From Eledone cirrhosa (taxonomy: Eukaryota): 64,000 nucleotides of DNA. Shown piece by piece: positions 6,682 to 7,863 of this stretch (positions are counted from its first letter, which is position 1; every line of letters starts with the position of its first letter). The stretch spans positions 1-64,000 of the forward strand of contig CAXHJY010001618.1 in NCBI GenBank assembly GCA_964016885.1, given 5' to 3'. The notes under the pieces were generated by a model that saw nothing but the letters and a program-made list of their open reading frames with translations, was not told where the DNA came from and searched no databases. The translations under genes were made by a program, and so were the position numbers.

Positions 6682-6883
6682 ACACACACACACATATATA
6701 TTTATAGATATATATATAAAGAATTAGTATATCTACCAACATATTTATACAGATGTATACTTACGCTAGCAAAAATATAGGTTTTGTCTTAGTAACTTTG
6801 TGGTTCATTACAAAAAGATGTAGAACAATTATATAAAAGACGTAAAATAAGAAAATTATAGTAATTAACTTACTTAAATTTCA

Positions 6884-6963
6884 CTCCAACTAATTAGTTT
6901 CTGAAAGGGGATATACATAGTCTTCAAATGGAGACCATGGAGAATCCTTTCTTCATCAGGGAG
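6884..6963 (-). ncRNA. Minimal type-I hammerhead ribozyme (element A, inverted copy)
   Basis: Minus strand reads ctcc-CTGATGA-a-gaaagg...cctttc-a-GAAAC-taatta-GTT-ggag. Confidence 0.75.
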
Positions 6964-7181
6964 ACATTCTCGGCTAAGATTCATGACAATACGCGGACAC
7001 TCCTCACTGATTAACCTCGATGTCACGTGATTGATTCTTTTGAATTTGCCACTGACCACGAAGGCAGTGAAATTTTCAATGTCTTGGAATTTAGTCCACG
7101 CTTGCTTTTTTCCATCCACTGAATTATATTTGTATGAGTTCCCTGTGTCCGCATATTGCCAGGAATCTTAGCCGAGAATGT

Positions 7182-7261
7182 CTACCTGATGAAGAAAGGA
7201 TTCTCCATGGTCTCCATTTGAAGTCTATGTATATCCCCTTTCAGAAACTAATTAGTTGGAG
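7182..7261 (+). ncRNA. Minimal type-I hammerhead ribozyme (element A, copy 1)
   Basis: CTGATGA 7186-7192, GAAAC 7244-7248, palindrome AACTAATTAGTT, cleavage triplet GTT 7255-7257. Stem I has one mismatch. Confidence 0.7.
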
Positions 7262-7708
7262 TGAAATTTAAGTAAGTAGGTAATTATTATAATTTTCTTA
7301 TTTCACGTCTTTTATATAATTGTTCTACATCTTTTTGTATTGAACCACAAAGTTACTAAGACAAAACCTATATCTTTGCTAGCGTAAGTATACATCTGTA
7401 TAAATATGTTGCTAGATATACTAATTCTTTATAAGTATCTCCAAATTATTTTGTTGAGCAAAAATTTGCCTGAATTAATACTATGGTTCATAGTATTAGT
7501 TTGGCTACTCTCTTTTTAACACCCCACTCCTCACTGATTAACCTCGATGTCACGTGATTGATTCTTTTGAATTTGCCACTGATCACGAAGGCAGTGAAAT
7601 TTTCAATGACTTGGAATTTAGTCCGCGCTTGCTCTTTTCCATCCACTGAATTATTTTTGTATGAGTTCCCTGTGTCCGCGTATTGCCAGGAATCTTAGCC
7701 GAGAATGT

Positions 7709-7788
7709 CTCCCTGATGAAGAAAGGATTCTCCATGGTCTCCATTTATAGACTATGTATATCCCCTTTCAGAAACTAATTAGTTGGAG
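7709..7788 (+). ncRNA. Minimal type-I hammerhead ribozyme (element A, copy 2)
   Basis: Stem I ctcc/ggag, CTGATGA 7713-7719, extended stem II (gaaagg/cctttc and catggtct/agactatg), GAAAC 7771, GTT 7782-7784. Confidence 0.8.
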
Positions 7789-7835
7789 TGAAATTTAAGT
7801 AAGTAAGTTAATTACTATAATTTTCTTATTTTACG

Positions 7836-7863
<28 letters not shown>

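What the first reader, a model, noticed from the sequence alone, without database searches (positions are those of the whole stretch)
6716..7845. Retrozyme candidate A: two in-phase hammerheads exactly 527 nt apart
Seen: a tandem non-coding unit with predicted cleavage after GUU at 7257 and 7784, plus a third HHR in a 5' inverted copy. Stem III is the perfect palindrome AACUAAUUAGUU. Established: minimal HHRs of Penelope-like elements have palindromic stem III and cleave as dimers, and metazoan non-LTR retrozymes are tandem HHR repeats that yield circular RNAs. Inference: a read-through transcript could pair its two HHRs, excise a 527-nt monomer and circularise it. That is longer than the animal retrozymes I recall.
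Basis: partly seen in the sequence, partly recalled or inferred. Interest (0 to 1): 0.85.

Follow-up and report, generated by a model that had tools for sequence, protein, structure and literature searches.

The report
Locked hammerhead repeat riding Penelope elements
This is one copy of a non-coding, ~525-base repeat present thousands of times in this animal genome; it carries a self-cleaving-ribozyme motif and the insertion marks of Penelope-like jumping genes, likely spreads by borrowing their enzyme, and is predicted to fold so that a distant strand closes over the ribozyme's cut site, as a circular RNA intermediate would need.

Summary
In detail: minimal type I hammerheads with predicted cuts after GUU at 7257 and 7784 (527 nt apart) and a third in an inverted arm. 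It is neither a local duplication nor an autonomous element's end: it belongs to a dispersed non-coding superfamily (about 11,500 exact-motif hits; six subfamilies of 522-563 nt); 1 of 242 sampled arms abuts a PLE ORF upstream. Copies sit in (TA)n, are 5'-truncated, and end at two fixed sites, 61 and 176 nt past the cut; head-to-head pairs have one of each in 64 of 66 classifiable cases. This is the Penelope-like-element (PLE) 'tail', also shown by a co-resident autonomous PLE. Ribozyme stems covary. A strand half-way round the unit is predicted to pair over the cut site and tracks its sequence changes, a viroid-like lock reported as rare in animal retrozymes. Cleavage, expression and circles are untested; 527 nt lies inside the published 51-972 bp range; this copy is decayed. 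Verdict: non-autonomous PLE / non-LTR retrozyme, a new variant. The scan noted similar hammerhead-bearing PLE ends in other genomes, not this family.

The parts
6715..7000 (-). Inverted arm: unit positions 415-527 then 1-176; 3' end at the family's long end (L), running into TA repeats
   Evidence: 96.2% to subfamily consensus
6884..6963 (-). HHR3, intact minimal type I hammerhead, core at 6959, predicted cut after 6888
6998..7000 (.). 3-nt microhomology joining the 5' ends of the two arms
   Evidence: most family junctions overlap by 0-12 nt
6998..7846 (+). Direct arm: unit 268-527, 1-527, 1-61; 3' end at the family's short end (S)
   Evidence: 96.7% to subfamily consensus
6998..7013 (+). First copy of the lock strand (complementary to the sequence across the cut site)
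   Evidence: fold
7182..7261 (+). HHR1: core 7186-7192, stem II 7194-7199/7236-7241 with extension, palindrome 7246-7257, predicted cut after 7257; stem I mismatch at 7184
7258..7784 (+). One full 527-nt unit, cut to cut (predicted monomer); non-coding, 34% GC
7272..7318 (+). Predicted conserved hairpin followed by the short-end site S (unit 61)
7319..7433 (+). 115-nt 'tail' between the two fixed 3' ends, with a predicted covarying hairpin before the long-end site L (unit 176)
7525..7540 (+). Lock strand, unit 268-283, half-way round the unit; predicted to pair with unit 520-526 and 1-6, leaving the scissile nucleotide unpaired
7709..7788 (+). HHR2, intact minimal type I hammerhead, core at 7713, predicted cut after 7784
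7841..7866 (.). (TA)n target at the right end (a TA-rich run also flanks the left end, about 6694-6718); no TSD can be read
   Evidence: 71 of 81 S/L ends in the position-based sample are followed by TATATA

Best explanation
The region is one head-to-head insertion of a dispersed, non-coding hammerhead repeat family with Penelope-like-element (PLE) insertion marks, which is likely copied in trans by a PLE reverse transcriptase-endonuclease, most likely from a circular RNA. Steps. (1, inferred) Tandem copies are transcribed; two hammerheads would pair their palindromes and cut, probably slowly or with protein help, and a host ligase would close the monomer. (2, predicted fold with comparative support) The lock strand half-way round the unit pairs with both sides of the cut, which would hold the two ends together for ligation and stop the circle from re-cutting. 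(3, end pattern shown, enzyme inferred) A PLE protein nicks both strands of a (TA)n tract and primes cDNA at two internal sites of the same RNA, 61 and 176 nt past the cut, one per strand. (4, shown in DNA) cDNA runs back across the cut site, often for more than one unit; the two cDNAs join at microhomology to give head-to-head arms with one short and one long end, or one is lost, leaving a direct copy with either end. Odds: non-autonomous PLE-mobilised family about 0.9; circle as template about 0.55.
For: Family: 2156 + 7017 + 2373 exact motif hits, reversed controls 0; subfamily consensuses 7-27% apart, longest ATG ORF 27-66 aa. Closed unit: sequence past the long end leads back to the next hammerhead; a PLE ORF lies within 300 nt upstream in the same sense for 1 of 242 arms. 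Ends: 109 S, 102 L, 31 other of 242 arms; head-to-head pairs 64 LS, 2 SS, 0 LL, 26 unclassifiable of 92. A co-resident autonomous PLE (3243-nt unit, 713-aa ORF) has two ends at +29/+117 past its own hammerhead-like site, also in (TA)n, with one of each in the 10 head-to-head pairs I read by eye. In vitro a PLE protein nicks and extends both strands and starts at two internal sites that define the tail (PMC11167929). One template per insertion: variants shared between successive units 224 vs 57 expected, between opposite arms 248 vs 50; position-specific variants no more than the homoplasy control (15 vs 12 after removing 127 alignment overruns; 22 vs 27) against 361 and 680 locus-specific. Ribozyme kept: core and palindrome unchanged in subfamily consensuses (core N is U or C); stem II 2 of 6 pairs and distal stem 4 of 4 pairs change on both sides. 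Lock: best long-range duplex of the unit in 4 of 6 sequences (-17.7 kcal/mol; 0-1 of 300 shuffles), at 45-58% of unit length in 65 of 74 genomic units; 98% of 301 cells paired, 1 pair changed on both sides, 6 on one side.
Against: No experiment and no RNA data. Lock support is weaker in two subfamilies (42 and 35 of 300 shuffles reach it) and rests on a single two-sided event among related sequences. The same lock forms in two-hammerhead transcripts and out-competes the dimer helix in 4 of 6 subfamily models (P(dimer) 0.00-0.11; 0.62 and 0.94 in the other two), so naked RNA is predicted to cleave poorly. GUU and an unpaired base on each side of stem II are sub-optimal (recalled). 5' ends are not significantly enriched at the cut (5 of 70, 2.1 expected, p=0.06). 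One of nine tested Xenopus dimers cleaved; PLE hammerhead cleavage was not needed for insertion in vitro. No autonomous partner sharing sequence was found. Long arrays show block duplications, i.e. some DNA-level growth. The samples were picked on the ribozyme motif, so 195 of 211 arms crossing the cut is partly by construction.
Confidence: 0.6

Rival explanations
1. Same non-autonomous PLE-mobilised family, but the template is an uncleaved linear tandem transcript; tandem copies arise by template jumping and later DNA duplication, the hammerhead fold is kept mainly as a protein-binding or rarely used element, and the lock strand serves to suppress cleavage. No circle is needed.
For: [quoted passage not shown] Lock predicted to form in linear precursors too. 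No significant 5'-end peak at the cut. Block duplications in the 12- and 15-unit arrays. Two copies at L033 share a non-unit 5' segment that cannot lie on the circle.
Against: Catalytic core, GUU and palindrome are kept over subfamilies up to 27% apart while stems covary. The lock spares exactly the scissile nucleotide, sits half-way round and holds both ends of a cut monomer (P 0.6-1.0 in the window, c4 and c7 linear monomers; not in c6, c2, c1). No position-specific donor variants, although template jumping would also give this.
Confidence: 0.33
2. The repeat is only the pseudo-LTR of an autonomous PLE, seen here as 5'-truncated ends with a local duplication.
For: Inversion, partial tandem, tail and minimal hammerhead are all autonomous-PLE features (PMC8557442; PMC3846280). 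One arm (L074) follows a PLE endonuclease fragment. Only a few percent of copies were inspected.
Against: Units close on themselves with non-coding spacer in all full units aligned; arrays of 12 and 15 units; the L074 junction is absent from the 39 other copies of that PLE scored; 1 of 242 arms abuts an ORF upstream.
Confidence: 0.04
3. A satellite or minisatellite that grows by unequal crossing-over, the hammerhead being a passive relic.
For: Two long arrays with internal block duplications; bioRxiv 10.64898/2026.07.22.740005 discusses local amplification.
Against: Most copies are dispersed arms under two units with fixed 3' ends, variable 5' ends and (TA)n targets; RNA stems covary.
Confidence: 0.03

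Closest known systems
Metazoan non-LTR retrozymes (Cervera and de la Pena 2020, PMC7229834; Li, Clavereau and Pollet 2026, bioRxiv 10.64898/2026.07.22.740005)
   Same: Non-coding tandem units, one type I hammerhead per unit, GC under 50%, monomers to multimers, thousands of copies, proposed PLE mobilisation; length within the 51-972 bp of Li et al.
   Different: The characterised ones are 170-400 nt, mostly with canonical hammerheads and loop-loop contacts, and most of their circles are predicted to leave the ribozyme free; the review PMC7761336 says they show no motif pointing to the partner. This family has a PLE-type minimal hammerhead with a long stem II extension, a lock helix and a full PLE end signature. 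Circles are shown there, not here.
Endonuclease-positive Penelope-like elements and their pLTR/tail (Craig et al. 2021 PMC8557442; Arkhipova et al. 2013 PMC3846280; Frangieh et al. 2024 PMC11167929; Cervera and de la Pena 2014 PMC4209133)
   Same: Partial tandems, inverted 5'-truncated arm, tail on one end only, microsatellite targeting, minimal hammerhead with short stem I, extra base 5' of stem II, G10.1-C11.1 pair and palindromic stem III.
   Different: No ORF; tail 115-120 nt rather than 30-40; no sequence match to the two resident PLE families I compared.
Non-autonomous Chlamys PLEs such as MRC1 (PMC8557442)
   Same: Non-coding, multicopy head-to-tail insertions with pLTR-like redundancy, mobilised by PLEs.
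   Different: Those resemble their autonomous families at the 3' end and most Chlamys lack canonical hammerheads; here the hammerhead is kept and no matching partner was found.
Plant LTR retrozymes and hammerhead viroids (as described in PMC7229834)
   Same: Ribozyme sequence predicted to be blocked by a complementary strand in the circle.
   Different: Type III hammerheads, LTR/PBS/PPT and Gypsy partner in plants; the unit here folds as a branched structure, 58-66% paired, not a rod.

Membership tests
Non-LTR retrozyme | Tandem units each with a type I hammerhead (canonical or minimal, Li et al. definition) | tested here: met
   42 of 211 S/L arms carry two whole hammerheads in phase
Non-LTR retrozyme | Non-coding, GC under 50% | tested here: met
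   longest ATG ORF 27-66 aa in five consensuses; GC 33-38%
Non-LTR retrozyme | Canonical hammerhead with 6-bp stem I and loop 1-loop 2 contacts (Cervera 2020 prototypes) | tested here: not met
   stem I 4-6 bp without closing loop, no Rfam hammerhead hit
Non-LTR retrozyme | Unit length (150-450 bp in Cervera 2020; 51-972 bp in Li 2026) | tested here: inconclusive
   522-563 nt: outside the first range, inside the second
Non-LTR retrozyme | Self-cleavage of the transcript | not testable with these tools
   folds only
Non-LTR retrozyme | Expressed as monomeric circular RNA | not testable with these tools
   no RNA run available
Non-LTR retrozyme | No LTR, PBS or PPT; TSD longer than 4 bp when present | tested here: inconclusive
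   TSD unreadable in (TA)n; PBS/PPT not searched
Non-autonomous PLE | 5' truncation, partial tandems and inverted 5'-truncated arm | tested here: met
Non-autonomous PLE | Two alternative 3' ends, tail on one arm only | tested here: met
   64 LS, 2 SS, 0 LL of 66 classifiable pairs; tail 115-120 nt, longer than the 30-40 bp described
Non-autonomous PLE | Minimal hammerhead of PLE type | tested here: met
   features of PMC4209133 seen; an additional unpaired A 3' of stem II is constant
Non-autonomous PLE | Sequence shared with the pLTR of an autonomous partner | tested here: inconclusive
   no match to two resident PLE families; no short-stem relative; many other PLE families in the genome not examined
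pLTR of an autonomous PLE | Repeat flanks an RT-GIY-YIG ORF | tested here: not met
   1 of 242 arms upstream-adjacent, non-recurrent

The most novel reading that the evidence does not exclude
An animal retrozyme lineage built like a viroid: a ~525-nt circular RNA with a covarying lock/ligation splint over a dimer-only hammerhead, propagated by rolling reverse transcription by a PLE enzyme that primes both target strands from two fixed sites of one circle, so that every head-to-head insertion records one short and one long start.
Probability: 0.4. Interest if true: 0.72.

Novelty: new variant of a known kind. Interest (0 to 1): 0.5.

Why it matters
How PLEs make tandem and inverted insertions, what their hammerheads do, and which enzyme moves animal retrozymes are open questions. 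This family joins them in one short RNA: it has the PLE end signature without an ORF, a near-strict one-short-one-long rule in inverted insertions that fits two-strand priming from two start sites, and six subfamilies whose covariation marks the RNA parts under selection, including a lock over the cut site. A 525-nt RNA is a tractable substrate for testing circle versus linear template with a purified PLE protein. The class itself is known and this copy is decayed.

Tried and rejected
Rfam: no hammerhead hit in 6740-7830 (4 chance matches); the window-wide scan listed only microsatellite-driven hits in the 150 of 212 rows shown. Expression: no RNA holder listed; three contig sets of unknown kind from one sample were laid and say nothing on expression or ends. 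Pseudoknot between the bases 5' of stem I and the stem II internal loop: conserved but no two-sided change, and the same bases pair with an upstream U-tract in the consensus fold; not claimed. 5'-end pile-up at the cut: apparent in top BLAST hits, not significant in the position-based sample. Partner search: unit vs the 713-aa PLE family and vs a second PLE family, no match; hammerheads with the same palindrome and a short stem II gave 39 hits; the 30 fetched were family copies with deletions except one unrelated match; a further subfamily proved non-coding too. Chimeras as partner evidence: L074 fits a shared enzyme but also insertion with deletion; L243 has two long ends and 18 nt between and fits independent insertions; neither used. 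Remnant endonuclease coding in unit 177-260: not supported. Lunse et al. 2017 could not be read. Scan index by place and by sequence: nothing relevant.

Full report
Observation. The window holds two arms joined head to head at a 3-nt microhomology (6998-7000): a minus-strand arm 7000-6715 and a plus-strand arm 6998-7846 with a 527-nt period. Three hammerhead motifs are present, with GUU ending at 7257, 7784 and 6888(-) and the 12-nt palindrome described. Numbering the unit from the cut, the minus arm covers 415-527 and 1-176, the plus arm 268-527, 1-527 and 1-61. The arms are 96-97% identical to their subfamily consensus. HHR1 has a stem I mismatch at 7184. Rfam has no matching model.

Family. 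A search of the 3.0-Gb host assembly with the unit gave 124 matches from 40 scored of 2801 candidates at 82-96% identity outside the window. Exact patterns over the ribozyme 3' half gave 2156, 7017 and 2373 hits for three largely non-overlapping variants, 0 for reversed controls. I fetched 60 loci by position from the first 100 listed hits on one contig (two clusters already held and the last two listed were skipped) besides best-hit and pattern loci. Full units fall into subfamilies of 522-563 nt, 7-27% apart, without ORFs over 66 aa; a sixth appeared. The host is an animal by its repeats; I did not determine which.

Insertion anatomy. Of 242 distinct arms, 109 end at the short site (about +61), 102 at the long site (about +176) and 31 elsewhere; 5' ends are scattered. 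In the position-based sample 71 of 81 such ends are followed by TATATA. Of 92 head-to-head pairs, 64 have one short and one long end, 2 two short, 0 two long, 26 have an unclassifiable end (21 of 21 and 22 of 23 in the position-based sample by two classifications). Single arms split 12 short, 11 long, 3 other. Partial tandems, an inverted truncated arm and a tail on one end are PLE hallmarks (PMC8557442, passages; PMC3846280, passages), and the tail was shown to be the stretch between two internal RT start sites of a PLE protein that nicks and extends both strands (PMC11167929, parts 1-2 of 4). The window also holds a fragment of an abundant autonomous PLE; its full copies have a 3243-nt unit, a 713-aa RT-GIY-YIG ORF and two ends at +29 and +117 in (TA)n, one of each in ten head-to-head pairs read by eye. 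So the repeat integrates like resident PLEs. It shares no sequence with that family or with a second one, so the partner is unidentified.

Not an autonomous element's end. The sequence past the long end returns to the next hammerhead in all full units aligned, arrays reach 12 and 15 units, and a PLE ORF lies upstream in the same sense in 1 of 242 arms, a junction not seen in the 39 other scored copies of that PLE.

Template. Successive units of one arm share 224 non-consensus variants against 57 expected from other loci (103 pairs), opposite arms 248 against 50 (151 comparisons, not independent). Variants tied to unit position are at the homoplasy level: 142 raw, of which 127 are alignment overruns into (TA)n, leaving 15 against 12, and 22 against 27, versus 361 and 680 locus-specific. 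Both arms and all units of an insertion thus come from one template lineage. A circle predicts this; template jumping on a linear RNA does too. 5' ends near the cut are not significantly enriched (5 of 70, p=0.06). The long arrays contain near-identical non-adjacent units, i.e. later DNA duplication.

Ribozyme. On 22 hand-picked copies 95.7% of 506 cells pair; stem II has two pairs and the distal extension four pairs with two-sided changes (related sequences inflate this). GUU stands in 162 of 167 motifs, partly by selection of the sample. Short stem I, an extra base 5' of stem II, G10.1-C11.1 and the palindrome match the PLE minimal hammerhead, which cleaves weakly and only as multimer in vitro (PMC4209133, parts 1-2 of 4). 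The palindrome duplex is far more stable than the monomer hairpin.

Lock helix. The consensus circular fold pairs unit 269-284 with 520-527 and 1-6. This is the strongest long-range duplex in the window unit and three of five consensuses (0-1 of 300 shuffles), weaker in two (42 and 35 of 300), and lies at 45-58% of unit length in 65 of 74 genomic units. Where the post-cut sequence gains a base and changes, the distant strand and stem I change to match: 98% of 301 cells paired, one two-sided and six one-sided pairs in 21 units. The scissile nucleotide stays unpaired. PMC7229834 (parts 2-4 of 6) states that most metazoan retrozyme circles leave the ribozyme free, some mussel circles excepted, whereas plant retrozymes and viroids block it. 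The helix can be read as lock and ligation splint for a circle, or as a brake on cleavage of a linear RNA: it also forms in two-hammerhead transcripts, beating the dimer helix in 4 of 6 models.

This copy. Read-through from upstream is predicted to bury HHR1 in the inverted-repeat duplex. In the plus arm alone the palindromes pair (P=0.83) but the post-cut bases go to the lock strands. With the HHR1 mismatch, this locus is a poor candidate source of monomers.

Novelty. Non-LTR retrozymes as PLE derivatives, minimal hammerheads included and 51-972 bp long, are in print (bioRxiv 10.64898/2026.07.22.740005, parts 1-3 of 5; its supplements are closed and could list similar families), so class and size are not new. 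I found no paper describing this family, a covarying lock in a PLE-type retrozyme, or a count of the one-short-one-long rule in searches; the library lacks most subscription papers, Repbase/Dfam were not available, Lunse et al. 2017 was not held, and the supplementary structures of PMC7229834 were not viewed. PMC6765202 and PMC7761336 were seen as passages. That GUU cleaves more slowly than GUC/GUA is recalled. Verdict: real, a new variant of a known kind; PLE mobilisation about 0.9, circle about 0.55.

Noticed in passing
window 37329-39300 (+): 5'-truncated copy of a very abundant autonomous PLE (713-aa ORF; 53,070 first-look candidates) whose hammerhead-like site has a U4-to-A core change and two ends 88 nt apart in (TA)n.
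   Followed up: partly
window 11241(-), 59902(-), 27430(+)/27309(-), 53151(+)/53136(-): Further minimal hammerhead motifs of unrelated families, two as inverted pairs; similar motifs recur in other loci.
   Followed up: no
L074:1392-3200: Head-to-head structure whose left arm is a second PLE family ending at its short end and whose right arm is that PLE's endonuclease region joined to this repeat ending at its long end: possible cross-family template switch, or insertion with deletion.
   Followed up: yes
L164-L182: Second PLE family with two (TA)n ends about 130 nt apart (by eye) and only a partial hammerhead-like core near its 3' end.
   Followed up: no
L243:1727-5492: Autonomous PLE copy adjacent to a four-unit insertion of the repeat, both outer ends long, 18 nt between.
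   Followed up: yes
L033:3190-5340: Two copies of a composite (another repeat's inverted arm joined to this unit at the same junction), one ending at the short and one at the long site.
   Followed up: partly
L031, L092: Arrays of 12 and 15 units with near-identical non-adjacent units, pointing to block duplication after insertion.
   Followed up: partly
window 7272-7277 and 7377-7381 (+): A splice-donor-like GTAAGT just after the cut is kept in all subfamilies; an acceptor-like TAG about 110 nt downstream is not fully kept. Possible relic of a PLE 5' intron; untested.
   Followed up: no
window 15347-18027, 17859-20171(-), 21557-25743, 30013-35194: Helitron fragment (Pfam Helitron_like_N), a decayed non-LTR element, and two L1/Tx1-like elements (RVT_1 hit for one; family labels recalled).
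   Followed up: no
window 7857-7913 / 7989-8045: 57-bp inverted repeat (96%) right after the insertion's (TA)n, MITE-like.
   Followed up: no
window 1570-3650: Tandem array with a 153-nt period.
   Followed up: no
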